A stretch of 64,000 bases of DNA. Source: Methanosarcinaceae archaeon. Its GTDB lineage: Archaea > Halobacteriota > Methanosarcinia > Methanosarcinales > Methanosarcinaceae. The stretch covers positions 3,470-67,469 of the forward strand of contig DAOUSW010000005.1 in NCBI GenBank assembly GCA_030627005.1. Reading direction: 5' to 3'. This document shows positions 10,686-39,420 of the stretch, in pieces. How positions within the stretch are numbered: the first letter of the stretch is position 1; every line of letters starts with the position of its first letter. Made by a program: the position numbers and the translations under genes. The notes under the pieces are model-generated. The model was not told where the DNA came from and ran no database searches. It worked only from the letters and a program-made list of their open reading frames with translations.

Positions 10686-12071
10686 TTAGAAGCCGTAGTT
10701 CTCAGGCAGGAATACTTTGACTTCGCTCTGGTACTTGGTAAGACAGTCGTCCATGAACTGGTCCATGTCGTCAGGGAGGGCATCGAGGGCTGCTTTTGCG
10801 TCCTTGAGTGCGCCTGCTTCGAACCTGGAGATTGAGAGCTTGCCTGCGACTCCCTCTTCGACAATGTTGCAGCATTCGATTGCTGCGTTCTTTGCCCTGA
10901 GGTAAATGTTGTCGCCGTCCTTGACGATTGCTTCTCCGACCTTGTATGCGTTGTCGTATGCAAGCACATAGCCCTGGGGGTCTCTGTACCTGTCAGAGAG
11001 CATGAACATGTCCCTGAGGACCTTTTCGTTTCCTGTCTCGAGTGCGGTGTTCATGAGGGCACAGTCGTATGCAAGGGATTCTCCCCTGCACTGGACACTT
11101 GTACCGCCGAATTCGCCGTGGTACTCAACGGATTCGTTGGACCAGACGTCACAGCACTGCATGATGAGGTTACCCATAACATCGGAGTGGGCGCAGGTGG
11201 AGGTCTTACCTTCCTGGGTCATCGGCATGCCGGTGATGGCTTTGATGATGACGTTTTCGTAGCCACAGTCCTTTCCGGGGCCAAGTGCGCCGTTTTCGTA
11301 TGCTGCAAGGGACCTTGGTGCGGAAATTGCCCTTGCGATGATTGCGAGGGTGTGGGCGAGGTTCTTGTCGAGCAGTCCGCCTGCAATGAACATCGCGGTG
11401 TTTGCCTGGGCACAGTCGGTGTCCCCTGCTGCAATGGTGCCGGTTTTCTTTGCAACTGCTGCGATGTCGGACCAGATCATGTCCATGTCAAGGGTGCCGA
11501 GACAGCCGATACCGTAAAGCATACCTGCGATGTCGTTCCTGAGGATTGCGTAGTCGAAAACTTCCTTACCACCCATACTTTCCACGGAAAGCAGGTCAGC
11601 GCCGTTTTCTGCGCATTTCTCGAAAGCTTCCATAAATACGGAGTACTTGTCTCCTCTGAGCTGGAGGAAGTCCCTGTTTTCACGGATGTCACCGATGGTG
11701 TGGCGCAGTGCGCACTTGATGCCGTATTCATCATGGTACTCTTCCATGATGGTCTTCTGGGCGTGTGCGACTTCTGCTCCCCATTCGGGGTTGTTGGACA
11801 TCTGCTGGACGTGTTCGGTTTCGAGGATAACTGCGGGGAAACCTACCTGGACCATTCTCTGCATGATGTCGGTGGTGATCCTCTCGTATTCATTTACGAG
11901 TTTTTCCTTGGATGCACCGGCTTCAGGTCTGGGGGCGTAGTTAACTTCAGGAATTGTGTAGCCAGCACCGATCTCGAGGCCGAGACCTGCTTTTACGGGG
12001 TGCTTGGTTTTTCCGAAGCTCATCTCATCTGCGCTTTCGTATGCCATTGAAGTGTATCTGTTTGCTACCAT
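10686..12071 (-). CDS. mtaB: Methanol:corrinoid methyltransferase MtaB
   Basis: YTSMAYESADEMSFG, ETEHVQQMS, AAGDTDCAQAN, GKDCGYE, CAHSD. Confidence 0.98.
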   Translation of the reverse strand: MVANRYTSMAYESADEMSFGKTKHPVKAGLGLEIGAGYTIPEVNYAPRPEAGASKEKLVNEYERITTDIMQRMVQVGFPAVILETEHVQQMSNNPEWGAEVAHAQKTIMEEYHDEYGIKCALRHTIGDIRENRDFLQLRGDKYSVFMEAFEKCAENGADLLSVESMGGKEVFDYAILRNDIAGMLYGIGCLGTLDMDMIWSDIAAVAKKTGTIAAGDTDCAQANTAMFIAGGLLDKNLAHTLAIIARAISAPRSLAAYENGALGPGKDCGYENVIIKAITGMPMTQEGKTSTCAHSDVMGNLIMQCCDVWSNESVEYHGEFGGTSVQCRGESLAYDCALMNTALETGNEKVLRDMFMLSDRYRDPQGYVLAYDNAYKVGEAIVKDGDNIYLRAKNAAIECCNIVEEGVAGKLSISRFEAGALKDAKAALDALPDDMDQFMDDCLTKYQSEVKVFLPENYGF

Positions 12072-12085
12072 CTATCTCGCCTCGA

Positions 12086-12859
12086 TTAGTGCTTGTGGAA
12101 TGCTTCTCTTAATGCTGCAATGTTGGAACCTGCAATGATTGCATCAGCGATCTTGGGTGCATCTGCGGCTTCTTCTCCGTAAACACCGAGTTCATACTGT
12201 GCAACGAAATCCTGGTTCACTGCACCGCCGCCACATGCGAATGGGACATTGAGGCCTTTCTCGACCAGCTTGTCGTTGACTTCCTTGAAGGCGTACATGG
12301 TGGTGGTCATGAGTGCGGTTCCGGTGACCATGATAGGCTTGTTCTCTTCGACTGCTGCGACGACTTCGTCAACAGGGCAGTCTCTTCCGAGGTCAACAAC
12401 GTCAAAACCGTTTGCCCTGAGGAGAGCGGTTACGATGTTCTTCCCGATGTCGTGAACGTCACCTTCTGCTACGTGGCAGACAACGGTTCCCTTGGTTTCA
12501 GGGGCAGTGTCGGAGTTTTCCTTGCAGAATTCGATTCCATCGAGCATTGCGTCGGCAGACATCATAACGTTGGGGAGGAAGATGACACCGTCGTCGTAGA
12601 GCTTGGTGACAACAGCCATTCCGACCATAAGTGCATCGTCAATAAGGGTAATTGCTTCCTTGCCTGCATCGATTGCTGCCTGGAGTCCCTCTACGACATC
12701 GTCTTCTTCACCCTCGAAGATGGCTTTTGCGATTGGGTAGATGAGTTCGTCTTTCGGATAGAGTTCTTCTGCGGCTTCTTCAGGAGTCATTTCCTTTTCC
12801 AGAGCCACATTGTATCTGGTTAAGACTTTTTTCAAGCTTTCTTCTGTAAAGTCCAGCAT
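12086..12859 (-). CDS. mtaC: Methanol corrinoid protein MtaC
   Basis: MLDFTEESLKKVL after GGAGGT; B12-binding GDVHDIGKNIV; ends FHKH. Confidence 0.98.
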   Translation of the reverse strand: MLDFTEESLKKVLTRYNVALEKEMTPEEAAEELYPKDELIYPIAKAIFEGEEDDVVEGLQAAIDAGKEAITLIDDALMVGMAVVTKLYDDGVIFLPNVMMSADAMLDGIEFCKENSDTAPETKGTVVCHVAEGDVHDIGKNIVTALLRANGFDVVDLGRDCPVDEVVAAVEENKPIMVTGTALMTTTMYAFKEVNDKLVEKGLNVPFACGGGAVNQDFVAQYELGVYGEEAADAPKIADAIIAGSNIAALREAFHKH

Positions 12860-14393
12860 ATTTTTAACCTCCATTCTGATTCAGCAAAAAAAGGTCCCGT
12901 TATCGCAGCCGTAAATGGGGTGTGCGGATCCCATCGGGCACCGGGTATTTCCGTTAAGCTGTAGAGGCATCTGTGCCTTTCTGTGGTGCGTACTCCCGGA
13001 AAGCCCACAGAGACTTCTGTTAAAAACAGGTGTATTTTAGGACTTCCTGCTGTACATACCCGTGAAAGACCTTTCCTCCACTTGATGCTCCGGATTTTTT
13101 CCTTTTTTTGAACCTTCCATGCCCATCTCCGGACATGTAACGCACAGCATAACGTGGCATCATCAAATATACCATAAACGACGGGAATTTTTTCCGGGTT
13201 TTGACGGGGATACATGGGCTGAAAAATTTTGAACCGGGTATGTGACTTATGGGGGTATTATATTCAGGGGGCACCGCTCCGGATCGCCATACTCAAAAAT
13301 TCAGGGGGGACTTTTTAACTCTCTGTGGGAAGACCTTTGTATTGTGTGGGGAGGGGGCACTCATAAAATATATTTTGTATCTCGGCATGTGCAGATGTAA
13401 GCCTGAAGGGGTGTGCAGATATGGGTGCAGACTGGAATATGCAGATTATAGTCAAGGACCCAAAGGCCTTCAGCAATCTCAAGCGAAAGTTTAACCACAG
13501 AAAGCACTGAAAACATGGAATAAAGGAAAAAGGGCACAATCCTTTCGTGCTTTCCGTGTCTTACGTGCTTATAATTTAAGTGTAAATATTTACGTTCGGG
13601 ACTATAGAATATATAATCTCTAAGTCTGCAAATTATAATCTCTAAGTCTGCAACATTAGTGACACTTGATTACATTTTGTATTATCTGGGAATGCTTGGT
13701 AACACCTGGTGAAAATTAGTATAAACTGGGAAAACCTGGTGAAAATTCTAAATTCTTCCGGGCAGTCATAAATGGGTGCATATATGACAAAAAATAAATA
13801 GGGAGAAGATAGATATAAGGCGTGGTGAGAGCGGGTCTGAAATGATTTTTACTAATACTAAAGGGTCTCTGTGCCTGTTTCAGGGGATAAGTCTGTTCTG
13901 TGATATTGTTTGAATAAAAAATTTTAGAACAGCTACCTTAAAAATTTTAAAGTCTCAGTTTTCATTAACCGGTTTGCTGAAATAAACTCGATTGAAAATT
14001 TTGATCTCCCTGTTTAGATTTTCTCATACTCATTATGTACTAATTGATTCTGTTCACGTTGTTCTATTCGTATTTCTATGGCTCTTGTTGCTGTTCTTTT
14101 CTTGTGTCCCCCTGATTTTTCTCCCTCTTTATTTCTTATTTTTTCCAGGGAGTTTGCGTCTTAAATTATCCATCCATATTTTTTTATATAAATGAGATGT
14201 GGATAATTCCTGTCTGTGATAAATTCCTACACTCCCCGCTTTTAGTCATATATATTAGGGGAGGCATCCGAATTTTTTGTTTGCCTTCGGGAGGACCCTA
14301 AATCCCGCGTAGTAAGGCACGCAGATAATGAAGCGTATCATTACCCCGAAAACCCCCAACCCTAAAAAACAAAGTGAAATCAAAGTGGTTTTT
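12860..14393. promoter_or_regulatory. Long mtaCB leader / divergent control region
   Basis: About 1.5 kb without a credible gene between mtaC and a divergent ArsR-type regulator; long mtaCB leaders are established in Methanosarcina. TSS not located. Confidence 0.55.
13447..13606 (+). mobile_element. MITE copy 2 (160 bp), inside the mtaCB control region
   Basis: TATAGTC...GACTATA; more diverged copy. Confidence 0.85.
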
Positions 14394-28082: not shown

Positions 28083-30851
28083 ATGAGCAATAAGCAGACT
28101 CATAACCAGAATCCGGAGCAGAAAGCCAGAGATGATATTGATAGAAAACTAACCGAGTCTGGCTGGATAGTGCAGGAAAAGACCGGGATAGATTGGAATG
28201 CTTCCAGGGGCATTGCGGTTAAGGAGTACCTGACCGATGTGGGGCCGGTTGATTATGTACTCTTTGTTGATAAAAAGCCCGTTGGAATCATTGAGGCGAA
28301 AAGGGACGAGGAAGGCCATCGGTTAACCGTTGTTGAGGAACAATCCTCTGAGTATGCTGCAAGCAAGCTAAAGTATCTGAACAATGACCCTCTTCCTTTT
28401 GTGTACGAGAGTACCGGGGAACTTACCCGATTCACAGACTTCCGTGACCCGAAACCCAGGTCAAGACCTGTTTTTTCATTTCTCCGGCCCGAGACTTTTG
28501 AGGAATGGCTCAAAAAAGATAAACCTTTGAGGGAAAGGTTTCTGGATATACCCGAATTGCGGACAGAAGGGCTGCGGGACTGCCAGATTACCGCTATCTC
28601 AAATCTTGAAAAATCCTTTAAGGACAACCGCCCGAGGGCGCTGGTCCAGATGGCAACAGGTTCCGGAAAGACCTATACTGCCATAACCTTCATCTACCGA
28701 TTACTAAAATTTGCGGATGCCAAAAAGGTCCTGTTCCTTGTCGATACCAAAAACCTGGGTGAACAGGCCGAGCAGGAATTCATGGCTTATGTGCCCAATG
28801 ACGACAACCGCAAATTTACCGAGCTGTACAATGTACAGCGCCTGCGTTCCAGTTATATCTCATCGGACAGCCAGGTCTGCATTTCCACAATTCAGCGGCT
28901 TTACTCTATTTTGAAGGGGGAGGAGCTGGACGAGAAAACCGAGGAAGAAAACCCCGCTGAGAAAGGATGGCAGCCAAAGGAACCGCTTCCTGTTGTGTAT
29001 AATGAGAAGGTCCCCCTTGAAGTGTTTGATTTTGTGGTCATAGACGAGTGCCACCGTTCCATATACAACCTCTGGCAGCAGGTGCTTGATTATTTCGATG
29101 CTTTTTTGATTGGCCTGACAGCTACCCCGGACAAACGCACATTCGCGTTTTTCAATGAGAACGTGGTGAGCGAGTACAGCCATGAAGAAGCTGTGGCAGA
29201 CGGCGTGAATGTGGGCTATGATGTGTACACCATCGAGACTGAAATCAGCAAAAACGGGGCAACGATAAATGCGCGGGAGTTTGTGGACAAACGGGTGAAA
29301 CTTACCCGTAAAAAACGCTGGGAACAGCTGGATGAAGCTGTCACCTATACTGCTAAGAAGCTGGACAAAGACGTGGTAAACCCCAGCCAGATCCGGCATG
29401 TGATACGGACATTCAAGGAAAAGTTGCCTGAGATCTTCCCCGGCAGAGAGGAAGTCCCAAAAACCCTGGTCTTTGCCAAGAGTGACAGCCATGCCGATGA
29501 TATCATCAATATACTGCGGGAAGAGTTCAACGAAGGCAATGCCTTTTGCAAGAAAGTGACCTACAAAGCGGAAGAAGATCCAAAATCGGTGCTGGCAGAT
29601 TTCCGCAACGCTTACAATCCCAGAGTAGCGGTTACGGTGGACATGATTGCCACGGGTACGGATGTTAAGCCCCTGGAATGCCTGCTCTTCATGAGGGACG
29701 TCAAGAGCCTCAATTATTTTGAGCAGATGAAAGGCCGGGGCACAAGGACCCTGGGCTATGATGACCTGAAAAAGGTGACAACATCGGCTGTTTCTGCCAA
29801 GACGCATTTTGTAATTGTGGATGCCGTGGGCGTTACAAAGACCTTAAAGACCGACAGCAGGCCTCTGGAACGCAAAAGAAACACGCCTCTGAAAGACCTG
29901 CTTGCAGCAGTAACCTTTGGCGCCCGCGACGAAGACCTTTATGTTTCCCTGGCTTCCCGCCTTGCAAGGCTGAACAGGCAGATAAGTGAAGATGAAAGGG
30001 CCACTTTTGCTGAGAAAGCTAACGGAAAAACTCTCAATCAGACCGTAAAGGACCTTCTCAATGCATATAACCCCGATATCATCGATCTCAAAGCTTCCGA
30101 AATTCAACTGCGCCAGCCGGAAATCCAGGACGCCGATGCTCAGAAAAAGGCACATGAAACCCTGATTGATGTTGCAAGGTCCACCTTTTCCGGCGAGCTG
30201 AACGAGTACATCGAAAACGTCCGCAGGGTCCATGAGCAGATAATCGATGCCGTGAACACCGACACCGTGCTCAGGGCCGAATGGGACAAAGACGCCGTGG
30301 CAAAGGCAGACGAGCTGATCATTGACTTTAAGGCATATATGGAAGCCAACAAAGACGAGATCTCAGCCTTGAGAATCTTCTATAACCAGCCCTACCAGCG
30401 CAGGGACGTCACCTTCACGATGCTAAAAGAAGTCCTGGAAAAGCTGAAACTCGAAAAGCCCCACTTCGCCCCCTTCAGGGTCTGGCAGGCTTACGAGCAG
30501 CTTGAAAAGGTAAACGGCAACTCCCCCAAAAACGAACTCATAGCCCTGGTCTCCCTGATCCGCAGGATAACCGAGATCGACCCTGTCCTCACAGCCTACG
30601 ACCGGACCGTAAACCGGAACTTCCAGGACTGGGTATTCAAAAAACAGGCAGGAACCCTGAAATTCAATGACGGCCAGATGAACTGGCTCCGCATGATAAA
30701 AGATTATGTGGCTACCAGCTTCCACCTGGAAATAGACGACCTTGACTACACTCCCTTCGATGCCCCTGGCGGGCGCGGCAGGATGTACCAGCTTTTCGGG
30801 GACGAGATGAATTTGCTTATAAGTGAATTGAATGAGGCCCTGGCGGCGTGA
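28083..30851 (+). CDS. hsdR: Type I restriction endonuclease subunit R (EcoEI/type IB-like)
   Basis: DYVLFVDKKPVGIIEAK nuclease motif, MATGSGKT, VIDECHRS, QMKGRGTR. Confidence 0.93.
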   Translation: MSNKQTHNQNPEQKARDDIDRKLTESGWIVQEKTGIDWNASRGIAVKEYLTDVGPVDYVLFVDKKPVGIIEAKRDEEGHRLTVVEEQSSEYAASKLKYLNNDPLPFVYESTGELTRFTDFRDPKPRSRPVFSFLRPETFEEWLKKDKPLRERFLDIPELRTEGLRDCQITAISNLEKSFKDNRPRALVQMATGSGKTYTAITFIYRLLKFADAKKVLFLVDTKNLGEQAEQEFMAYVPNDDNRKFTELYNVQRLRSSYISSDSQVCISTIQRLYSILKGEELDEKTEEENPAEKGWQPKEPLPVVYNEKVPLEVFDFVVIDECHRSIYNLWQQVLDYFDAFLIGLTATPDKRTFAFFNENVVSEYSHEEAVADGVNVGYDVYTIETEISKNGATINAREFVDKRVKLTRKKRWEQLDEAVTYTAKKLDKDVVNPSQIRHVIRTFKEKLPEIFPGREEVPKTLVFAKSDSHADDIINILREEFNEGNAFCKKVTYKAEEDPKSVLADFRNAYNPRVAVTVDMIATGTDVKPLECLLFMRDVKSLNYFEQMKGRGTRTLGYDDLKKVTTSAVSAKTHFVIVDAVGVTKTLKTDSRPLERKRNTPLKDLLAAVTFGARDEDLYVSLASRLARLNRQISEDERATFAEKANGKTLNQTVKDLLNAYNPDIIDLKASEIQLRQPEIQDADAQKKAHETLIDVARSTFSGELNEYIENVRRVHEQIIDAVNTDTVLRAEWDKDAVAKADELIIDFKAYMEANKDEISALRIFYNQPYQRRDVTFTMLKEVLEKLKLEKPHFAPFRVWQAYEQLEKVNGNSPKNELIALVSLIRRITEIDPVLTAYDRTVNRNFQDWVFKKQAGTLKFNDGQMNWLRMIKDYVATSFHLEIDDLDYTPFDAPGGRGRMYQLFGDEMNLLISELNEALAA

Positions 30852-30856
30852 GTTCA

Positions 30857-31025
30857 GAGAAAACTGTGGTGAAACTGTGGTGAAACTGTGGTGAAAAGTG
30901 GGGTGAAAATAATCGGATAAAAGCAAAAAAATAAGCATCTTGCGGTGGAAAATTGATCATAAAAGAGGAGAATAGGTTGGGAGAATAGTTTGGGAGAAAA
31001 GTGGGGAAAAAAGTGGGGTGAAAAC
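30857..31025 (+). repeat. Degenerate repeats (GAAACTGTGGT x3; AAAAGTGGGG units), possible gene remnant
   Basis: Direct reading; partly translates as KVGKKVG-like low-complexity text. Confidence 0.5.
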
Positions 31026-31242
31026 TAGCATCCCGGGGTAATTCATAGACTTTCTTTTTCTCACCGTTTTCAGTACTGGTGGACACGACCTCAATTACGT
31101 CAGGAATGTATATTATCAATGAATTGTTATTATTAATGGGGCGGTTTATGATGGGCAGGCGAAGAGCATGGAACGCTTCTCTGTACTTTTGGAAGAGATA
31201 AATAAAGACAATAAGTGAATAATATATTGGGAGTTGAGGTGT

Positions 31243-31614
31243 ATGGGAATAGCTGAAGAAACGCAAGTTCCAAGGCACAGGACTTTTGTGGCGTCAACGG
31301 AAATAAAAGGATCTAAGATCCTTACTGTTAAAGATGAAGAACTCGGAACGATTAAAGAAGTCATGATTGACTCTGAATGGGGAAGAATCGCATACGTAGT
31401 ATTTGCTTGTGATTGTTTTCTTGGTATGAAGTGTAAATTCTTTGCCATTCCTTGGGGAGCTCTTGAAGCAAATCTAGGAGAGTATATCCTTAAAGTTGAT
31501 AAGGGAGCATTCAAAACGGCAGAAGGCCTGGATGAAAATGTGTGGACTTTAAATCGTAACGATTTGGTTAAAGTGTATGAACAGTATAATGTTCCTCCTT
31601 ACTGGGAAGTTTAA
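31243..31614 (+). CDS. PRC-barrel domain protein
   Basis: GAGGTG then ATG; IKGSKI...LGTIKEVMID...GRIAYVV...FFAIPW. Confidence 0.88.
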   Translation: MGIAEETQVPRHRTFVASTEIKGSKILTVKDEELGTIKEVMIDSEWGRIAYVVFACDCFLGMKCKFFAIPWGALEANLGEYILKVDKGAFKTAEGLDENVWTLNRNDLVKVYEQYNVPPYWEV

Positions 31615-31841
31615 AAGCTCATTTTCGGGTGATGATTTAGCCATATATGGGAACCATAGGACGTTGTTTAAGAATGTAATAATTAGTACAGCATTTGATG
31701 TACACACTGATCGACAGAGTATATGACTGATGATTTACAGGTAGACTTTGCAAAAATACTACTGGTATATATTACTCAGAATAATATAACCGCTAGTATT
31801 TTATACTTTAACTTACATATTATATATTGTTCACAAGGAAC

Positions 31842-32440
31842 TAAGCTGTAAAATGAAGCAAATTCAGGACAGAGTAAAACCTGATCCCGCAATAAACTTC
31901 ATTGACGCGTAAGCTGTAAAATGAGGCAAATTCAGGACAGAAAAATCTGATCCCGTATAATACTTCATTGGCGCGTAGCTATAAGGTGGAGCAAATTCAG
32001 GACGGCTTGAAAACCGATCCCGTAATCTACTTCATTTATGGCGTAAACTGCGAAATGAAGCAAATTCAGGGCAGTCTGATATCTGATCCCGTAATCTACT
32101 TCATTTATGGTGTAAACTGCGAAATGAAGCAAATTCAGGACAGGGTAAAAGCTGATCCCGTAATCTACTTCATTGACGTGTAAGCTTAAAATGGAGCAAA
32201 TTCAGGACAGAATAATCTGATCCCTCAATAAACTTCATTGGCGCGTAGCTATAAGGTGGAGCAAATTCAGGACGGCTTGAAAACCGATCCCGTAATATAC
32301 TTCATTTATGGCGTAAACTGCGAAATGAAGCAAATTCAGGACAGTCTAAAATCTGATCCCGTAATATACTTCATTGACATGTAAGCTTAAAATGGAGCAA
32401 ATTCAGGACAGAAAAATCTGATCCCTCAATAAACTTCATT
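31842..32440 (+). repeat. Array of 9 structured units, period 65-69 bp
   Basis: Consensus RTGRAGCAAATTCAGGAC-N8/10-CYGATCCCG-N6-ACTTCATT-N15-18; unit starts 31853, 31921, 31986, 32055, 32124, 32191, 32256, 32325, 32392. Confidence 0.95.
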
Positions 32441-33045
32441 GATGCAGACCAAACCTTGTGAACCCCTTATTCACTCTTTTAATCAAAGTTAAAGCGTCTA
32501 GATGTTGTTTCCTCTTCTTTTACTGTTTTTCTCAGCTTTTTGTTTTAGATATTTAACAAGCAACGTAATTATACTGTTTTGAGCCAAAATGAGCAGAATT
32601 CCTGTCTACAGACACTTCCACGTAGTATGAAAAATGTTTTCACTTTAGAAGGTGAAAATTAGTGAAATACCGGGATTGTCTGAATACATATTTACGTTCA
32701 CAATCCCAATCATCCCCGGTTAATTTTCAATGGTACACTATTTTCGAGATGCTTTTTTTGTTTGCGGCTCTAATACAGACCTATATGCTTTTATACAGTT
32801 TTAATTTCTTGTTAAATTACTGAAAGGCACGAGTAGACAATTATTTAATCAACTGACATCTTAAAAGTACTTCAAAATTGATAATGTTCGAATACAGATT
32901 TATATGAGGCTCTGGCGGCTTGAATACAAATGTATAATATTCAATTTAAATTTGACCGATTTGCGGTTTAAGTGAACTATATTCATATATATCTAAACAG
33001 TATAAATTTATACAGTGTTTTCATGAATGGGGTTGATAAGGAATT

Positions 33046-34533
33046 ATGAAACTTCTATATGATACAAATATTTTAATTCACATTCAAGATCCAAAAGAGC
33101 TTTCTCCCAATCTTCAAGCATTGTTAACAATAATCCGAGAACATGGTCATCAGGAGTTTATCCATCCTGCTTCTTTGAAGGATATCGAAAATGATAATGA
33201 TACTGAAAGAAGGAGAATAACTTTATCAAAGCTTCGTGGTTATCCTCTGCTTCCTTCACCGCCTACTCCAGATGATGAGTTTACATCTTTAGTAGGTATT
33301 CCCGTAAATTCACATGATGAAAATGACAACGAAATTCTTTTTTCACTTAAAAAAAATCTTGTAGATTTCCTCATAACAGAAGATAAAGGAATCGGAAAAA
33401 AAGCCAATTTACTGAATCTTGATGATAGAGTGCTTTCAATTGATTCAGCTCTCAATTATTTTACGGCCTTATATCAACGTTTTTTCCCTAATCATAGTTT
33501 ATTGAGGAAATGCTATGCTCATGAAATTGATATTAATCAACCGTTTTTTGACTCACTTAAATCAGATTATGGAGATGCGGATTTTAAAAAATGGTATGAT
33601 AAATGTATCAAAGAAAGTCGTGAATGTTACACTTATGAAGAGAATGACAAAGTTAAAGCTTTTCTCATGCTAAAAGAAGAAAATGAAGTTATTGAAACAC
33701 ATTATCCCATTCCTGCCACAAAAAGAGTTAAAATTGCAACACTAAAGGCCGATTTATCAGGTTCTAAAATGGGCGAACTCTTCCTCAAAATAGCTTTTCA
33801 GTATTGCATAAATAATCAGATTTTTGAAATTTACTTAACTCATTTTGAAACTGAAGATGACACCTTATCTTATCTCATTGAGAACTTTGGTTTTGAAAGA
33901 GTAGGAGAGCTGGCAAAGAATGATGAACCGGTATATCTAAAGAAACTTATCCCGGAAACTACTGAATTACGGCCATTAGAAATTGCTAGAAAATCCTATC
34001 CTTGCTTTAAAGATAGTGAAAGTGTTAACAAATTTGTGATCCCAATTCTTCCCGAATTTCACGATATTCTATTTCCTGAATACAAAAGAAGGCAAATGAA
34101 ATTGACAGATTATTTTGAAATCAATATTCCTGGCAATGCAATAAAAAAGGCATATCTTTCATCACGATTTTCTTCCAGATTGGGACTCGGAGACATAATT
34201 CTTTTTTATCGTTCACATGATCAAAAAGCGATAACTTCTCTCGGAATAATTGATCAGGAACCAATACGAACCAGTAATTTAGATGAACTTAAAAGAATAG
34301 TAGGTAAAAGAAGTGTATATTCTGAAGAAGAACTTAAAAAATGGGCAGAAAAATCAGTTTTTGTTATCCGTTTCAAGCATCACTTATACTTACCAAATCC
34401 TCTGAATCTGAGTTATCTCATAGAAAATGATATTTTGAAAAGTGCCCCACAATCGATAACTGAAATAAACCATGAACAATATCTATCTCTAAAAACTGGT
34501 GGCAAACTCGATGAACGTTTTACTGTCAATTAA
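33046..34533 (+). CDS. PIN + GNAT + EVE/PUA-like fusion protein
   Basis: LYDTNILI...HDENDNEIL...LITED (PIN); KIATLK...GELFLK...FGF (GNAT); GNAIKKAYL...GDIILFYRS...APQSITEI (EVE/PUA-like). Confidence 0.8.
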   Translation: MKLLYDTNILIHIQDPKELSPNLQALLTIIREHGHQEFIHPASLKDIENDNDTERRRITLSKLRGYPLLPSPPTPDDEFTSLVGIPVNSHDENDNEILFSLKKNLVDFLITEDKGIGKKANLLNLDDRVLSIDSALNYFTALYQRFFPNHSLLRKCYAHEIDINQPFFDSLKSDYGDADFKKWYDKCIKESRECYTYEENDKVKAFLMLKEENEVIETHYPIPATKRVKIATLKADLSGSKMGELFLKIAFQYCINNQIFEIYLTHFETEDDTLSYLIENFGFERVGELAKNDEPVYLKKLIPETTELRPLEIARKSYPCFKDSESVNKFVIPILPEFHDILFPEYKRRQMKLTDYFEINIPGNAIKKAYLSSRFSSRLGLGDIILFYRSHDQKAITSLGIIDQEPIRTSNLDELKRIVGKRSVYSEEELKKWAEKSVFVIRFKHHLYLPNPLNLSYLIENDILKSAPQSITEINHEQYLSLKTGGKLDERFTVN

Positions 34534-36526
34534 ACCAAAGTATGTTGATGAAATTCTAGCTGGTAAAAAGATATTTGAGTTTAGAAAATCCATTTTCAAA
34601 AAAAAGGATATAGGCAAAGTATTCATTTATTCGAGTTCTCCTGTCAAAAAAATAGTTGCATCATTCGAGATTGCCAGAATCATTGCCGATTCTCCTCAAA
34701 AACTCTGGAATAAATGCCAGAAATATGGAGGAATCCCTGAAAATGACTTTTTTGAGTATTTCAAAAATTCAGATATTGGTTATGCAATAGAAATAACCAA
34801 TCTTAATGAGTTTTCTGAGCCAATTAATCCCTACAAATTAAAACAGGACTTTAGACCACCACAATCTTACTGTTATTTACCTTTGGATTATTTTGAAAAT
34901 ATAAACATCAACAGTATTCCAAGAATAAAAAAACAGGATATGGTGCTGTTGGAATCAGGTAATGAATATTTCTCCAATTCAGATACCAATAAAAACTCCA
35001 GCAAAAAACATACACAAACTAAACTTTCCAATGAAGATGAATTTCAAAAGATGCCAGGACTGTCAGAAGGGTTGCTGAAAAATAACATGATTATGGAAGA
35101 GAGAGCTGGATGGATAGAAACTGAATTGGGTCAAGTAGCTGAAATTATAATGGGACAATCGCCACCATCTTCAACTTACAATGAATATGGTATTGGACTC
35201 CCTTTTTTTCAAGGAAAAGCAGAGTTTACTGAACTACACCCCCTTGTTTCAAAATGGTGTTCAGAGCCAAAGAAGATTGCTGAATCAAACGATATTCTAA
35301 TTTCGGTTAGAGCCCCAGTTGGAGCAACAAATATTGCTAACCAAAAGTGTTGCATTGGTAGAGGATTAGCAGCCATTCGTTACCCCGATTGCAACAAGTA
35401 TGTGTTCTACTTTTTGAGATTAATTGAAAAAGAATTGGATAAAAAAGGTACTGGCACGACCTTTAAAGCGATTTCAGGTTCAGTTTTAAAGAGTGAAGGA
35501 ATCCCTTTAGCTCCTCTTCCCGAACAACGCGCCATAGTCTCCAAAATCGAGCAGCTCTTCAGCGAACTGGACAACGGCATTGCCAACCTCAAACTGGCAC
35601 AGGAACAGCTCAAGGTGTATCGGCAGGCGGTGCTGAAGAAGGCGTTTGAAGGGGAGCTTACGAAAAAATGGCGGGAGCAGCAGACTGATCTGCCGGATGC
35701 GGGGGATTTGCTGGAACAGATTAGGAAGGAAAGAGAAGAAGCTGTAAAAGCCTCCGGCAAAAAACTGCAAAAAACTAAGCCTTTTACTGAAGTGGAATTG
35801 ACAGAGTTACCGAGACTACCCGAAGGATGGGGATGGGAAAGATTGGAGGGAGTCGGATATTGGACAGGAGGTGGAACTCCTTCAAAACAAAACCATTCTT
35901 ATTGGAATAATGGTGATGTTCTTTGGGTTTCTCCAAAAGATATGAAAACTACGTTGATTTTAGATACCGGAGATAAAATAACCAAAGATTCAATTGAGAA
36001 TTCTTCCGCAAAATGGATAGCTAAAGATTCAATACTTTTTGTTGTTAGAAGTGGAATCATTAGAAGAATTTTGCCGATCGCATTAGCAGGGAAAAACCTC
36101 ACAACAAACCAAGATTTACAATCATTGACTTTATTTTGGGGAGATAAAGATTATGTATTCTGGTATTGCCAGGCTAATGAGCAAGTCATTAGGGAAAAAT
36201 GCGCTAAAGATGGTACAACTGTAGACAACATTGAAGTTCCACGTTTGAAATCATACCCGATAGCAATTTGTTCCCTCCCTGAACAACAAGCCATCGTTCA
36301 GGAAATCGAAACCCGCCTTTCAGTCTGCGACAAGATAGAGCAGGATATAAAAGAGAATCTGGAAAAAGCCGAAGCACTTCGGCAGAGTATTTTGAAAAAA
36401 GCGTTTGAGGGGAAGTTGCTTAATGAAAGGGAGCTGGCAGAGGTTCGAGGGGCAGAGGATTGGGAGCCGGCTGAGGTTTTGCTGGAGAGGGTGAAGGCTG
36501 AGAGAGCAGGGAATGGGAAGACGTGA
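34511..36526 (+). CDS. hsdS: ASCH domain fused to type I RM specificity subunit S
   Basis: MNVLLSIKP..GKKIFEFRK...PPQSYCY (ASCH), ~60 aa linker, then two TRDs with conserved PLPEQRAIV...LKKAFEG and PEQQAIV...LKKAFEG; single open frame. Confidence 0.88.
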   Translation: MNVLLSIKPKYVDEILAGKKIFEFRKSIFKKKDIGKVFIYSSSPVKKIVASFEIARIIADSPQKLWNKCQKYGGIPENDFFEYFKNSDIGYAIEITNLNEFSEPINPYKLKQDFRPPQSYCYLPLDYFENININSIPRIKKQDMVLLESGNEYFSNSDTNKNSSKKHTQTKLSNEDEFQKMPGLSEGLLKNNMIMEERAGWIETELGQVAEIIMGQSPPSSTYNEYGIGLPFFQGKAEFTELHPLVSKWCSEPKKIAESNDILISVRAPVGATNIANQKCCIGRGLAAIRYPDCNKYVFYFLRLIEKELDKKGTGTTFKAISGSVLKSEGIPLAPLPEQRAIVSKIEQLFSELDNGIANLKLAQEQLKVYRQAVLKKAFEGELTKKWREQQTDLPDAGDLLEQIRKEREEAVKASGKKLQKTKPFTEVELTELPRLPEGWGWERLEGVGYWTGGGTPSKQNHSYWNNGDVLWVSPKDMKTTLILDTGDKITKDSIENSSAKWIAKDSILFVVRSGIIRRILPIALAGKNLTTNQDLQSLTLFWGDKDYVFWYCQANEQVIREKCAKDGTTVDNIEVPRLKSYPIAICSLPEQQAIVQEIETRLSVCDKIEQDIKENLEKAEALRQSILKKAFEGKLLNERELAEVRGAEDWEPAEVLLERVKAERAGNGKT

Positions 36527-36555
36527 GAAGGCTCGGTGATTACTACGGGAGCGCG

Positions 36556-36802
36556 GAGGGTCACGAATACCCCGACTTTCAAGTTGGGGATGAAGTGAAC
36601 CCTCGCACGTTTTTTTGTGCCCCTTTAGATTGAAATCCCTTACTCCTTTGTAATTTGAGGTTTCTCGGTATCATGATTACAGGAGTTCGAATTGCTACTC
36701 TAATATTAAAGAAACTTTGTCAAACGATACTAAACACTTCCCAAGAAACCGGGCGGGCGGCCCGAAGCATACCCCACCTTTTAAGGTGGGGTGGCCGCCC
36801 GC
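36556..36802. mobile_element. Pair of related compound hairpins, possible IS200/IS605-type end remnants
   Basis: CCCCGACTT-TC-AAGTTGGGG (36570-36589) and ACCCCACCTT-TT-AAGGTGGGGT (36771-36792), each inside an outer GC stem. Confidence 0.4.
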
Positions 36803-36926
36803 AATTTGATTTGTTTATATGATCACTCCTATTGCTGATGAGAAAACTGAGGGTGCAATTGAGGGCGTAAAAACATAAACCACAGGATCAAAGGATATCA
36901 TCGGCTGGTTAAATGATACTGTTAAT

Positions 36927-37088
36927 TACCCCCCAAGCTACCCCCCAAGCTACCCCCCAAGCTACCCCCCCAAGCTACCCCGCAGGCTACCGCGCAAGTT
37001 ACCCCGCAAGTTACCCCGCAGCCACCCAGCAGGCTACCGCGCAAGCTACCGCGCAAGCTACCGCGCAAGCTACCGCGCAAGTTACCGA
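36927..37088 (+). repeat. 12 bp tandem repeat (CCCCAAGCTACC / GCGCAAGCTACC), PQAT/PQVT-coding
   Basis: Direct reading; about 13 degenerate units. Confidence 0.85.
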
Positions 37089-37170
37089 GTAAGCTGGCAA
37101 TAGATGTTGAAAATCAAGTTTCGTAAAGAAGAAATACAAAAATATTACTCTCATCTCAAGGATCCAAACC

Positions 37171-38703
37171 ATGTCTGAAAATACCTCATCCATCGTTTCC
37201 AAAGTCTGGAGCTTCTGCAACGTCCTGAGGGACGGGGGCGTGAGCTACGGTGATTATCTGGAACAGTTGACCTATCTCATTTTCCTGAAAATGGCTCAGG
37301 AGTACAGGAAGGAGCCATATAACAGGGATATTGGTATCCCGGAGGAATATACCTGGGACAGGCTGAAACAGCAGCGTGGAGCGGAGCTCGATACTCATTA
37401 CAAGGGGCTCTTGGAAGAGCTGGGGAAAAAGCCGGGAATGCTGGGGCAGATCTTCCTCAAGGCCCAGAACAAGATAAGCGACCCTGCAATGCTGTACAAG
37501 GTCATTGATATGGTCGATAAGGAAAGCTGGGTCATGATGGGTGTGGATACCAAGGGAGAAATCTACGAAGGGCTCCTGCAGAAGAACGCAGAAGATACAA
37601 AAAGCGGAGCCGGACAGTACTTCACCCCGAGGCCTCTTATCAAGGTCATGGTCCGGTGCCTGCAGCCCGAACCCCTGAAGACCATAGGTGACCCCTGCTG
37701 CGGTACAGGCGGGTTCTTTTTAGCAGCTTATGACTTCCTTACCTCACAGCACAGGCTGGACCGGGAACAGAGCCGCTTTTTGAAAAACAAAACCTTTGGA
37801 GGGAATGAGATCGTCGCAGGGACCAGACGGCTTGCCCTTATGAACATGTTCCTGCACAACATCGGGGAAATCGACGGGGAGCCCATGATCTCCAATTCCG
37901 ACGCTCTTATAGCCGATCCCGGCTACCGTTACGATTACATCCTCACCAACCCGCCCTTCGGAAAGAATAGCAGCATGACCTTCACCAACGAAGAAGGCGA
38001 GCAGGAAAAAGAAGAGCTCACCTACAACCGTCAGGACTTCTGGACAACCACGAGCAACAAGCAGCTCAACTTTGTGCAGCATATCCACACCATCCTAAAA
38101 ACCGGCGGGCAGGCAGCAGTAGTACTGCCGGACAATGTGTTGTTTGAAGGCGGAGCAGGGGAGACCGTGCGCAAAAAGCTTCTTGAGACCACCGACCTGC
38201 ACACAATCCTGCGCCTGCCGACAGGCATCTTCTATGCGAATGGGGTAAAGGCAAACGTGCTTTTCTTTGAGGCAAAACCCGCAGCCAAAGAGCCCTGGAC
38301 AAAAGAAGTGTGGATCTACGACTACCGCACAAATGTGCACCACACCCTCAAAAAGAATCCGATGAAGTATTCGGACCTGGAAGACTTTGTCAAATGCTAT
38401 AACCCCGAAAACCGTTTCAGCCGTACTGAGACCTGGAGCGAAGAAGCTCCCGAAGGCAGGTTCCGGAAATTCGGCTATGAGGAAATTGTAGCAAGGGATA
38501 AAACGAACCTGGATATCTTCTGGCTCAAGGACAAAAGCCTTGCTGACCTGGACAACCTTCCGGACCCAGATATTCTTGCAAACGAGATCATCGAGAATAT
38601 GGAGGCTTCGCTGGCAAGTTTCAAGGAGATTATGCTCACAATTAATGGAAACGGGGGAGACAACGGAAGCGGGGGAGACAATGGAAACGGGTACGGGAAT
38701 TGA
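37171..38703 (+). CDS. hsdM: Type I RM N6-adenine methyltransferase subunit M
   Basis: GAGQYFTPR, DPCCGTGGF, LTNPPFG, VVLPDNVLF. Confidence 0.95.
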   Translation: MSENTSSIVSKVWSFCNVLRDGGVSYGDYLEQLTYLIFLKMAQEYRKEPYNRDIGIPEEYTWDRLKQQRGAELDTHYKGLLEELGKKPGMLGQIFLKAQNKISDPAMLYKVIDMVDKESWVMMGVDTKGEIYEGLLQKNAEDTKSGAGQYFTPRPLIKVMVRCLQPEPLKTIGDPCCGTGGFFLAAYDFLTSQHRLDREQSRFLKNKTFGGNEIVAGTRRLALMNMFLHNIGEIDGEPMISNSDALIADPGYRYDYILTNPPFGKNSSMTFTNEEGEQEKEELTYNRQDFWTTTSNKQLNFVQHIHTILKTGGQAAVVLPDNVLFEGGAGETVRKKLLETTDLHTILRLPTGIFYANGVKANVLFFEAKPAAKEPWTKEVWIYDYRTNVHHTLKKNPMKYSDLEDFVKCYNPENRFSRTETWSEEAPEGRFRKFGYEEIVARDKTNLDIFWLKDKSLADLDNLPDPDILANEIIENMEASLASFKEIMLTINGNGGDNGSGGDNGNGYGN

Positions 38704-38748
38704 AACTACTGCCCGCTCTAATTTTGTCTCCCGGTTGAGAACCGGACT

Positions 38749-39420
38749 TTACCCGGTCTCTTCCGGTACCTGTCGGGCGCGCCCGAAAACTATCCCCATC
38801 AGCAGGAACACAAAGGGGGAGACCCCGGCGTAGCCCAGGATTCCGATATTTCGGACATTCATGTTTGCAAGCGGTACCCCGATTAACCCCGCAAGACTCA
38901 GTAAGCCGCTGGCAACCATAAGAATCCGAACAGTTTTCTCCAGCCTTCCTCTCCTGAATACAGGTGCGGCAAAGAGCATTGAGAGGGCAAAGAAAAAGTC
39001 CCATGCGAGTATGTCCATTGTATATGCTACGGACGGCCAGCTGAAGGAAAAGAATAGTGAAGCCAACGGCAATCCCGCAGCCTCGATCTGACGGCTTACA
39101 GTAAGGATAACGAAGTGGACACTACAGGTAATGCTTGCCATAAGGACCATAAATGCAAGTGCAGTATGGCTGTACATTCTGGTCTCGGGAGAGGCATAAG
39201 CGTGAACTGCGACCATAACAATGACCATCAAGGGCGCCATCACAACGATGAGCAGTTCCAGTATGGTGAAGAAAGGGTCCCCGATCGGGTCTTCGGGCGA
39301 CTTGAGTGAGAGGAATCCAAGAACCAGCGTAAGCAGATATGCTATCAGGAGGAAAAACACGGCCAGGGCTGCAGCTCTTCCCAGGCTGCGGTGTTGTCTG
39401 GTGAAGCCTTCATGTTCCAT
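38749..39420 (-). CDS. Hypothetical multi-pass membrane protein
   Basis: About six hydrophobic segments. Confidence 0.7.
   Translation of the reverse strand: MEHEGFTRQHRSLGRAAALAVFFLLIAYLLTLVLGFLSLKSPEDPIGDPFFTILELLIVVMAPLMVIVMVAVHAYASPETRMYSHTALAFMVLMASITCSVHFVILTVSRQIEAAGLPLASLFFSFSWPSVAYTMDILAWDFFFALSMLFAAPVFRRGRLEKTVRILMVASGLLSLAGLIGVPLANMNVRNIGILGYAGVSPFVFLLMGIVFGRARQVPEETG

What the first reader, a model, noticed from the sequence alone, without database searches (positions are those of the whole stretch)
34511..36526. ASCH domain fused in frame to the HsdS specificity subunit
Seen: one open frame joins a complete ASCH domain (GKKIFEFRK, PPQSY) through a ~60 aa polar linker to a two-TRD HsdS. 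Established: ASCH is a PUA-superfamily nucleic-acid-binding fold, and canonical HsdS has no such domain. Inference: the M2S or R2M2S complex would carry a reader domain that might sense modified bases or RNA, or recruit the upstream PIN-GNAT protein, coupling restriction to a second effector. An internal start at MIMEERAG (~35088) could also yield plain HsdS.
Basis: partly seen in the sequence, partly recalled or inferred. Interest (0 to 1): 0.75.

Follow-up and report, generated by a model that had tools for sequence, protein, structure and literature searches.

The report
ASCH–HsdS fusion, already described
The gene is real and conserved in Methanosarcina-family archaea: a small nucleic-acid-binding ASCH domain, normally the partner of a PIN-GNAT-EVE defence-candidate protein, is fused to the DNA-recognition subunit of a type I restriction enzyme, but this architecture was already reported in 2020 and its function is still untested.

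Summary
Observation confirmed. Window 34511-36526 (+) is one 671-aa ORF made of three parts. The first is an ASCH domain (aa 1-126; AF2 model TM 0.88 to Zymomonas ZmASCH). The second is a disordered polar linker (aa ~127-192). The third is a complete two-TRD HsdS. It lies between hsdR and hsdM.

The fusion is not an artefact. Clean fusions of 605-721 aa occur in at least 8 other Methanosarcinaceae species and at least 16 protein clusters (Methanosarcina, Methanolobus, Methanococcoides, Methanohalophilus). They form one clade. That clade also holds secondarily interrupted forms: a TAA-TAG split, an in-frame TAG, and a poly-A frameshift.

The ASCH part matches PADLOC PDC-M11B. The overlapping upstream 495-aa gene matches PDC-M11A, a PIN-GNAT-PUA(EVE) protein. 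This pair is conserved widely (58/72 loci).

Bell et al. 2020 (PMC7641849) already described these operons, their link to type I R-M, and the ASCH-HsdS fusion in Methanohalophilus, with the same inference. I found no experimental study.

The internal Met is not conserved and has no SD, so the fused protein is probably the main product.

The likely role, which is inferred, is a flexible tether coupling the PIN-GNAT-EVE/ASCH module to the R-M complex.

Novelty: already known. Interest: modest.

The parts
28083..30851 (+). hsdR, type I restriction subunit (922 aa; ResIII/DEAD helicase plus EcoEI_R_C C-terminus)
   Evidence: Pfam; PADLOC REase_I
33046..34533 (+). PDC-M11A = PIN-GNAT-PUA(EVE-like) protein, 495 aa. 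PIN is ~33046-33495, GNAT ~33508-34080, PUA-like ~34138-34530
   Evidence: PADLOC PDC-M11A E 3.9e-147, full length. AF2 pLDDT 86.8. Foldseek finds GNAT N-acetyltransferases and ZmASCH-like matches; the latter are assigned to the C-terminal domain. Naa50 profile hit at aa 224-289. Weak EVE at aa 372-479. PIN_3 sub-threshold in 11/13 relatives, with D6/D94/D113 invariant
34511..34533 (+). 23-nt overlap of the M11A stop region with the ASCH-hsdS start (different frames). SD-like GGTGG at 34498-34502
   Evidence: Sequence. Overlaps of ~20-38 nt in nearly all relatives
34511..36526 (+). Fused gene ASCH(PDC-M11B)::hsdS, 671 aa
34511..34888 (+). ASCH domain (aa 1-126). K20/E23/R25 motif. Y40, K46 and S119 are equivalent to ZmASCH Y47, K53 and S128
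   Evidence: PADLOC PDC-M11B E 1.7e-48
34889..35086 (+). Polar linker (aa 127-192), predicted disordered; length and sequence vary among orthologues
   Evidence: pLDDT <50 for aa 142-190; alignment
35087..35095 (+). Relic hsdS start codons (M193, M195). No SD upstream; not conserved outside Methanosarcina
35108..35587 (+). HsdS TRD1 (aa ~200-359). Same TRD1 as in L011, L012, L014 and L015; different in L013 and L016-L018
   Evidence: Pfam stretch 200-359
35588..35806 (+). HsdS central conserved helical region (approximate)
   Evidence: PADLOC/HMM coverage; boundaries inferred
35807..36334 (+). HsdS TRD2 (aa ~433-608, approximate)
36335..36526 (+). HsdS C-terminal conserved helical region plus stop
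   Evidence: boundaries inferred
37171..38703 (+). hsdM, type I N6-adenine methyltransferase (510 aa)
   Evidence: Pfam N6_Mtase 226 bits plus HsdM_N; PADLOC MTase_I E 4e-194

Best explanation
Identity (shown). This is the Methanosarcina orthologue of a conserved Methanosarcinaceae gene. In it the ASCH protein that normally partners a PIN-GNAT-EVE protein (PADLOC candidate system PDC-M11, components B and A) is fused to the N-terminus of a complete two-TRD HsdS. The join is a ~65-aa disordered linker. The gene lies inside an intact hsdR...M11A-ASCH::hsdS...hsdM operon.

Mechanism (inferred). The full-length fusion is the S subunit that assembles with HsdM and HsdR. The ZmASCH-like basic nucleic-acid-binding cleft therefore rides on a flexible leash next to the DNA held by the type I enzyme. 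[quoted passage not shown] The fusion thus physically couples the second effector (RNase plus acetyltransferase plus modified-base reader) to the R-M complex. In lineages where ASCH is a separate gene next to hsdS, the same coupling would be non-covalent.
For: The fusion is real and conserved. There are clean 605-715-aa ORFs in 8 other species and at least 16 full-length clusters. The fused forms make a single clade in the ASCH tree.

A-B partnership. M11A lies immediately upstream, with overlapping genes, in 58/72 loci. Both genes hit the PDC-M11 models.

ASCH-HsdS partnership. ASCH sits directly upstream of a separate hsdS in 12 loci. In six of these the survey found no M11A upstream of ASCH; examples are L022 (PIN-ASCH-hsdS) and L046.

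ASCH is fused to other accessory modules elsewhere. It is fused to AAA_17 in L061 and to HTH in alpha-proteobacteria (PMC7641849).

Linker and start. The linker is disordered. TRD1 is swapped among orthologues while ASCH stays constant. The internal Met is not conserved and lacks an SD.

Cleft residues. The three ZmASCH residues shown by mutagenesis to matter for nucleic-acid binding or RNA cleavage are invariant or nearly invariant here.

Same inference in the literature: Bell et al. 2020, PMC7641849.
Against: No expression or proteomic data exist for the window organism or its cultured relatives. Most M11A-ASCH pairs (about 47 of 84 loci) have no type I gene within 8 kb, so the module can work without R-M. 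Interrupted forms (L004, L007, L008) show that the covalent link is dispensable or easily lost. PDC-M11 is only a candidate; I found no published defence phenotype.
Confidence: 0.55

Rival explanations
1. ASCH works for the R-M enzyme itself. [quoted passage not shown] This is the reading given by Bell et al. 2020.
For: ASCH is adjacent to hsdS without M11A in L022, L025, L039, L046, L052 and L075. PUA-superfamily relatives (EVE, YTH, SRA) read modified bases; foldseek also finds the McrB N-terminal domain, VcaM4I and dsDNA-bound TRIP4 ASCH. PMC7641849.
Against: In every fused locus with upstream sequence, M11A is also present. The closest characterised homologue, ZmASCH, bound unmodified ssDNA and ssRNA and cut ssRNA; no modified-base specificity was reported.
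Confidence: 0.2
2. ASCH is an enzyme. It would be either a ZmASCH-type Mg-dependent ssRNA nuclease or a YqfB-type N-acyl amidohydrolase that reverses a mark written by the GNAT domain, and it is delivered to DNA-bound complexes by HsdS.
For: ZmASCH has RNase activity, and Y47, K53 and S128 are conserved as Y40, K46 and S119. K20, E23 and R25 are invariant. YqfB, an ac4C amidohydrolase, is a structural neighbour. The partner protein is a GNAT.
Against: The ZmASCH authors found no conserved acidic metal ligands in the cleft. The YqfB match is weak (E ~1e-2, TM ~0.7 on the target). No acetylated nucleic acid is known in these organisms.
Confidence: 0.12
3. The fusion is functionally neutral. Stop-codon loss joined two adjacent, same-frame, translationally coupled genes, and the two parts act exactly as they do when separate.
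For: In L008 the two genes are in the same frame, separated only by TAA-TAG and five codons. The linker is unconserved and disordered. Interruptions recur.
Against: The fusion persists across four genera and through TRD swapping. The relic start and SD have decayed in most lineages.
Confidence: 0.1
4. The fusion is an artefact or pseudogene, or only the short HsdS from M193 is made.
For: NCBI annotates the M. spelaei orthologue as 485 aa from the internal Met (P0122). M193/M195 are retained in the Methanosarcina subclade.
Against: Identical protein in three assemblies. Clean fusions in isolate genomes. The internal Met is absent in 5 of the 8 other fused orthologues, and no SD precedes it in the window.
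Confidence: 0.03

Closest known systems
ASCH-HsdS fusion in Methanohalophilus within PIN-GNAT-EVE / type I R-M operons (Bell et al. 2020, BMC Biol 18:159, PMC7641849)
   Same: Same operon type, same domain order and same family (Methanosarcinaceae). The Methanohalophilus orthologues were recovered here (L018; P0412, P0425).
   Different: The window is a Methanosarcina-lineage orthologue with a longer linker and different TRDs. It lacks the COG2865 (Schlafen/AlbA_2) gene that several relatives carry in the operon.
PADLOC phage-defence candidate PDC-M11 (A + B)
   Same: Both model sets are matched (A: E 3.9e-147, full length; B: E 1.7e-48), and the genes are adjacent and overlapping.
   Different: B is normally a free 125-170-aa protein; here it is the N-terminus of HsdS. 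PDC-M11 is a candidate, and I found no published phenotype.
ZmASCH, Zymomonas mobilis ASCH protein (PDB 5GUQ/5GUS; Kim et al. 2017, PMC5615036)
   Same: Same ASCH subfamily (profile E 6e-21; TM 0.88, rmsd 1.8 A). Y47, K53 and S128 are conserved.
   Different: Only about 21% identity. ZmASCH is the ASCH portion of a protein deposited as 'HTH domain-containing', not an HsdS fusion. RNase activity has not been tested for this protein.
Canonical type I HsdS (two TRDs plus two conserved helical regions)
   Same: aa 193-671 align end to end with ordinary 440-500-aa HsdS proteins, and the gene lies with hsdM and hsdR.
   Different: It carries a ~190-aa N-terminal ASCH-plus-linker extension. Public annotation and precomputed Pfam list only PF01420.
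PrrC anticodon nuclease held latent by the EcoprrI type I enzyme (recalled from the literature, not re-read here)
   Same: An RNase-type effector gene embedded in a type I hsd operon, suggesting an R-M-coupled second line of defence.
   Different: There is no homology: M11A hits only PDC-M11A models. The coupling here would be through a covalent ASCH-HsdS tether. No trigger is known.

Membership tests
Type I R-M specificity subunit (HsdS) | Two target-recognition domains separated by conserved helical regions | tested here: met
   PF01420 scores 119 bits in 2 stretches. PADLOC Specificity_I models are matched nearly end to end (positions 5-415 of 431) by aa 198-637. Plain HsdS proteins align to aa 193-670.
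Type I R-M specificity subunit (HsdS) | Encoded with hsdM and hsdR in one locus | tested here: met
   hsdR 28083-30851 and hsdM 37171-38703
Type I R-M specificity subunit (HsdS) | Assembles as M2S1/R2M2S1 and sets the methylated target sequence | not testable with these tools
   Needs biochemistry or a methylome
ASCH domain (PF04266, PUA-like superfamily) | Passes Pfam's gathering score | tested here: inconclusive
   The window scores 20.4 bits against a cut-off of 21.2. Close relatives pass at 25.0 and 25.8 bits, and many relatives carry precomputed PF04266.
ASCH domain (PF04266, PUA-like superfamily) | PUA-like beta-barrel fold with flanking helices | tested here: met
   AF2 pLDDT >90 for aa 1-120. 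Foldseek to ZmASCH gives TM 0.88 and rmsd 1.8 A, and also finds TTHA0113, TRIP4 ASCH, AF2351 and YqfB.
ASCH domain (PF04266, PUA-like superfamily) | N-terminal GxKxxExR motif (recalled from Iyer et al. 2006, not re-read) | tested here: met
   G18-K-K20-I-F-E23-F-R25. K20, E23 and R25 are invariant in 58 sequences.
ZmASCH-like subfamily | Cleft residues Tyr47, Lys53 and Ser128 needed for nucleic-acid binding or RNA cleavage | tested here: met
   They align to Y40, K46 and S119. Y40 and S119 are invariant and K46 is at least 90% conserved. The mutagenesis is described in PMC5615036.
ZmASCH-like subfamily | Mg-dependent ssRNA cleavage | not testable with these tools
   Needs an enzyme assay
PADLOC PDC-M11 | Both component HMMs matched by adjacent genes | tested here: met
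   A: E 3.9e-147. B: E 1.7e-48. 23-nt overlap.
PADLOC PDC-M11 | Protects against phage | not testable with these tools
   Candidate only. The literature searches found only a listing of it in a strain's defence inventory.
(PIN)-GNAT-EVE + ASCH operons (Bell et al. 2020) | GNAT acetyltransferase core in the large protein | tested here: met
   Naa50 profile hit E 7e-4 at aa 224-289. Foldseek finds NatC, NatD, Naa50 and PaiA.
(PIN)-GNAT-EVE + ASCH operons (Bell et al. 2020) | C-terminal EVE/PUA-like domain | tested here: met
   Foldseek of the full-length model to ZmASCH gives TM 0.75 on the target; I assign this match to the C-terminal domain. Pfam EVE matches aa 372-479 at 16.4 bits, below the cut-off of 23. 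Some relatives carry PF01878.
(PIN)-GNAT-EVE + ASCH operons (Bell et al. 2020) | N-terminal PIN domain | tested here: inconclusive
   PIN_3 matches the full profile in 11/13 relatives but below the cut-off (best E 7e-4; window 0.014). D6, D94 and D113 are invariant. NCBI names relatives 'PIN domain-containing'.
(PIN)-GNAT-EVE + ASCH operons (Bell et al. 2020) | Companion ASCH gene and association with type I R-M | tested here: met
PrrC / EcoprrI-type R-M-guarded anticodon nuclease | PrrC-family protein (ABC-ATPase-like N-domain plus ACNase C-domain) | tested here: not met
   M11A matches only PDC-M11A models in PADLOC and no PrrC-like family in Pfam. The resemblance is functional and positional only.

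The most novel reading that the evidence does not exclude
The covalent ASCH-HsdS tether makes the PIN-GNAT-EVE protein a guard of the type I enzyme. It would be held or controlled on the R-M complex through ASCH. It would be unleashed as an RNase or acetyltransferase toxin when phage anti-restriction factors or unusually modified DNA disable or stall the complex. Alternatively, GNAT and ASCH could form a writer and reader/eraser pair for an acyl mark on nucleic acid that the type I system uses.
Probability: 0.15. Interest if true: 0.75.

Novelty: already known. Interest (0 to 1): 0.3.

Why it matters
The fusion is a natural 'Rosetta stone'. It argues that the widespread but uncharacterised PIN-GNAT-EVE/ASCH module (PDC-M11) acts together with type I restriction enzymes. 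It also gives a defined construct for testing how a second effector is wired to an R-M complex.

That idea is already in the literature (Bell et al. 2020). This analysis adds the following:
- The phyletic extent: four genera and at least 16 protein clusters, in one clade.
- Evidence that the fused protein, not an internal-start product, is the conserved form.
- The naturally split, TAG-interrupted and frameshifted variants.
- The structural link to ZmASCH, with its tested cleft residues conserved.
- The fact that public annotation calls these proteins plain 'subunit S' and misses the ASCH part.

Tried and rejected
(1) My first reading was that the window lost a 12-nt stretch holding L008's stops and SD. 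The DNA alignment rejects this: it is colinear and ungapped, and TAA-TAG in L008 aligns with TTG-CTG in the window.

(2) The 1.84-billion-representative search with the full-length fusion returned only plain HsdS proteins in its top 150. It was useless for counting fusions and useful only for the HsdS boundary. The word-indexed search did recover the fusions.

(3) RNA-seq evidence for co-transcription or an internal transcription start: only metagenome runs hold the window, plus one weak RNA run of a relative. No runs were found for the Methanohalophilus or Methanolobus loci.

(4) Pyrrolysine read-through as the explanation for split forms. L008 has TAA followed by TAG, so it is a true stop. 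L007's single TAG in TRD1 and L014's TAG in M11A could be read through in Pyl-decoding hosts, but nothing tested here shows that.

(5) No Rfam family matches in 30800-38800.

(6) There are no extra hsdS cassettes or second ASCH copies in the window, so there is no shufflon-type switching.

(7) Iyer et al. 2013 (cited by Bell et al. for the DNA-base-acetylation idea) is not held in the library, so it is cited only second-hand.
Full report
OBSERVATION

Window 34511-36526 (+) is a single 671-aa ORF. An upstream GTG at 34499 falls inside the SD-like GGTGG at 34498-34502, so ATG 34511 is the likely start. Every orthologue begins MNVLLSIKP.

Pfam finds Methylase_S (119 bits, two stretches). ASCH scores just under the cut-off (20.4 vs 21.2 bits). 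PADLOC Specificity_I models are matched nearly end to end by aa ~198-637. In the 1.84-billion-representative search, ordinary 440-500-aa HsdS proteins align from query residue ~193-200 to the end. The HsdS module therefore begins at the internal MIMEERAGW, with ATGs at 35087 and 35093.

The ASCH call is secure at profile and fold level. A 58-sequence profile hits the Zymomonas ZmASCH structures 5GUQ/5GUS/5Y6B/5Y6C at E 6e-21. The AF2 model has pLDDT >90 over aa 1-120 and superposes on ZmASCH with TM 0.88 and rmsd 1.8 A. Residues 142-190 have pLDDT <50, which indicates a disordered linker.

NOT AN ARTEFACT, NOT A ONE-OFF

The identical protein is called in three assemblies, though these may share reads. 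More tellingly, a scan of one genome per species found 381 relatives. My ORF/HMM survey of the 80 best loci, plus the loci, gave clean uninterrupted ASCH::HsdS ORFs of 611-715 aa (stop to stop) in eight species:
- Methanosarcina spelaei
- Methanosarcina sp. UBA8098
- a Methanobacteriota MAG
- Methanococcoides seepicolus
- Methanolobus psychrotolerans
- a Methanosarcinaceae MAG
- Methanolobus sp. WCC5 (complete genome)
- Methanohalophilus euhalobius

All of them lie in the order hsdR ... M11A - ASCH::hsdS ... hsdM.

The word-indexed protein search found at least 16 distinct full-length fused clusters (643-721 aa, at least 99% coverage). These include Methanosarcina siciliae HI350 and Methanohalophilus halophilus. 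Shorter-coverage fusions with other TRDs include Methanolobus zinderi. All are annotated only as 'restriction endonuclease subunit S' with PF01420.

An NJ tree of ASCH domains places all fused forms in one 12-leaf clade with nothing else in it. This tree is midpoint-rooted and has no bootstrap support.

Three interrupted forms are nested inside that clade:
- L008-L010 have TAA-TAG followed by AGGTGA and the hsdS ATG, in the same frame.
- L007 has one in-frame TAG inside TRD1, where L008 has Glu.
- Methanolobus sp. T82-4 (L004-L006) is frameshifted at an A9 run in TRD1.

The simplest reading is one ancestral fusion in Methanosarcinaceae followed by secondary breaks.

INTERNAL START

M193/M195 survive only in the Methanosarcina subclade (window, L011, L013). 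L012, L014, L015, L016, L017 and L018 have no Met there. The window has no SD in the 5-12 nt before ATG 35087, whereas the split relative has AGGTGA. The fused protein is therefore the conserved product. A minor short form in Methanosarcina cannot be excluded.

WHAT THE ASCH IS

The top 120 relatives of aa 1-195 are free 118-224-aa proteins. PADLOC identifies the domain as PDC-M11B (E 1.7e-48). It identifies the overlapping upstream 495-aa gene (33046-34533) as PDC-M11A (E 3.9e-147, full length).

M11A lies immediately upstream of ASCH, usually overlapping by ~20-38 nt, in 58 of the 72 loci with enough upstream sequence.

The M11A model (pLDDT 86.8) matches two kinds of structure. One is the GNAT N-acetyltransferases NatC, NatD, Naa50 and PaiA. 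The other is ZmASCH itself, which I assign to the C-terminal PUA-like domain. A Naa50 profile hit and a weak Pfam EVE hit agree with this.

The N-terminal 150 aa match PIN_3 over the full profile in 11/13 relatives, but below the cut-off. D6, D94 and D113 are invariant. The partner is therefore PIN-GNAT-PUA(EVE).

LINK TO TYPE I R-M

Of 84 non-redundant loci, 26 have at least two hsd genes within 8 kb, 10 read ASCH into HsdS, and 12 have a separate hsdS directly downstream. In six of those 12 the survey found no PIN-GNAT-EVE gene upstream of ASCH. Two were inspected:
- L022 has a stand-alone PIN, then ASCH, then hsdS.
- L046 has hsdM, a 114-aa gene, ASCH, hsdS and hsdR.

ASCH of this family is also fused to AAA_17 in a Sulfurovum locus. 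According to the literature it is fused to HTH in alpha-proteobacteria.

LITERATURE

Bell et al. 2020 (PMC7641849) make the following points:
- They describe (PIN)-GNAT-EVE proteins.
- They say almost all such operons encode an ASCH protein and often an AAA_17 ATPase.
- They note frequent association of PIN-GNAT-EVE with type I R-M.
- They state that none of the modules had been characterised experimentally.

My searches for PDC-M11, GNAT-EVE, ASCH+HsdS and ASCH+type I found no later functional work.

ZmASCH binds ssDNA and ssRNA and cuts ssRNA with Mg2+. Its Y47F, K53E and S128A mutants reduce binding or cleavage (PMC5615036). These residues align with Y40, K46 and S119 in the window protein. 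Y40 and S119 are invariant and K46 is nearly invariant.

MECHANISM

Shown:
- The domain identities.
- The disordered linker.
- Conservation of the fusion.
- The A-B gene coupling.
- The ASCH-hsdS adjacency.

Inferred:
- The fusion protein is the S subunit of the complex.
- ASCH, on a ~65-aa leash, binds nucleic acid near the enzyme-bound DNA and docks or controls M11A, so that the two systems are coupled.

Rival readings are:
- an R-M-intrinsic modified-base reader;
- an ASCH enzyme (RNase or deacylase);
- a neutral fusion;
- a short-form-only product.

These are scored in their own sections. None could be separated computationally here, because no complex prediction or expression data were available.

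VERDICT

The architecture and its suggested meaning are already published for a sister genus, so novelty is 'already known'. Interest is modest (0.3) and rests on the system being experimentally untouched.

Noticed in passing
window 31842-32442: Tandem array of ~69-nt units (8.9 copies, 77% matches; also periods 201 and 270) in the low-GC gap between the PRC-barrel gene (31234-31614) and M11A. The whole units are alike, so it is not CRISPR-like. There is no Rfam hit.
   Followed up: partly
window 36926-37086: A 12-nt unit TACCCCGCAAGC repeated ~13 times, ending ~85 nt upstream of the hsdM start. A length-variable repeat here could affect hsdM expression.
   Followed up: no
window 36753-36802: Very stable nested GC-rich hairpin (-41.6 kcal/mol, z -4.6) followed by a T-rich run, ~230 nt after the hsdS stop and before hsdM. 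It looks like a terminator and suggests hsdM may have its own transcript.
   Followed up: partly
window 30859-31024 and 38647-38691: Short tandem repeats (11-13 nt) just after hsdR. An 18-nt repeat encodes the Gly/Asn/Asp-rich C-terminal tail of HsdM.
   Followed up: no
L007:748-750 and L014:7064-7066: In-frame TAG codons in the fused hsdS (L007) and in M11A of the cultured Methanococcoides seepicolus (L014, at a variable position aligned with D177). These lineages are thought to decode UAG as pyrrolysine (my own knowledge), so read-through rather than truncation is possible.
   Followed up: partly
L004:~10535 (same in L005 and L006): Methanolobus sp. T82-4: the ASCH::hsdS frame breaks at an A9 homopolymer in TRD1. 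The break is seen in ENA, NCBI and JGI assemblies. It could be a pseudogene, a slippage-prone switch or a shared assembly error.
   Followed up: partly
L004:7056-8405 and 11767-13251; L009:146-1528: Relatives carry COG2865-type Schlafen/AlbA_2 - HATPase_c_4 - wHTH genes between hsdR and M11A, and between hsdS and hsdM. The window has none, only a PRC-barrel gene and repeats in that position.
   Followed up: partly
L061:3067-4005: Sulfurovum MAG: a second ASCH gene downstream of M11A is fused to an AAA_17 P-loop domain. This is another ASCH fusion to an accessory component of the same system.
   Followed up: partly
L022:7494-8477: Methanoperedens: a stand-alone 160-aa PIN protein replaces PIN-GNAT-EVE upstream of ASCH-hsdS inside a type I operon.
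   Followed up: partly
L011 (M. spelaei) vs P0122: NCBI annotates the M. spelaei hsdS as 485 aa from the internal Met, although the ORF is open for 677 aa including ASCH. Precomputed Pfam lists only PF01420 for all fused proteins, so databases systematically miss the ASCH part.
   Followed up: yes
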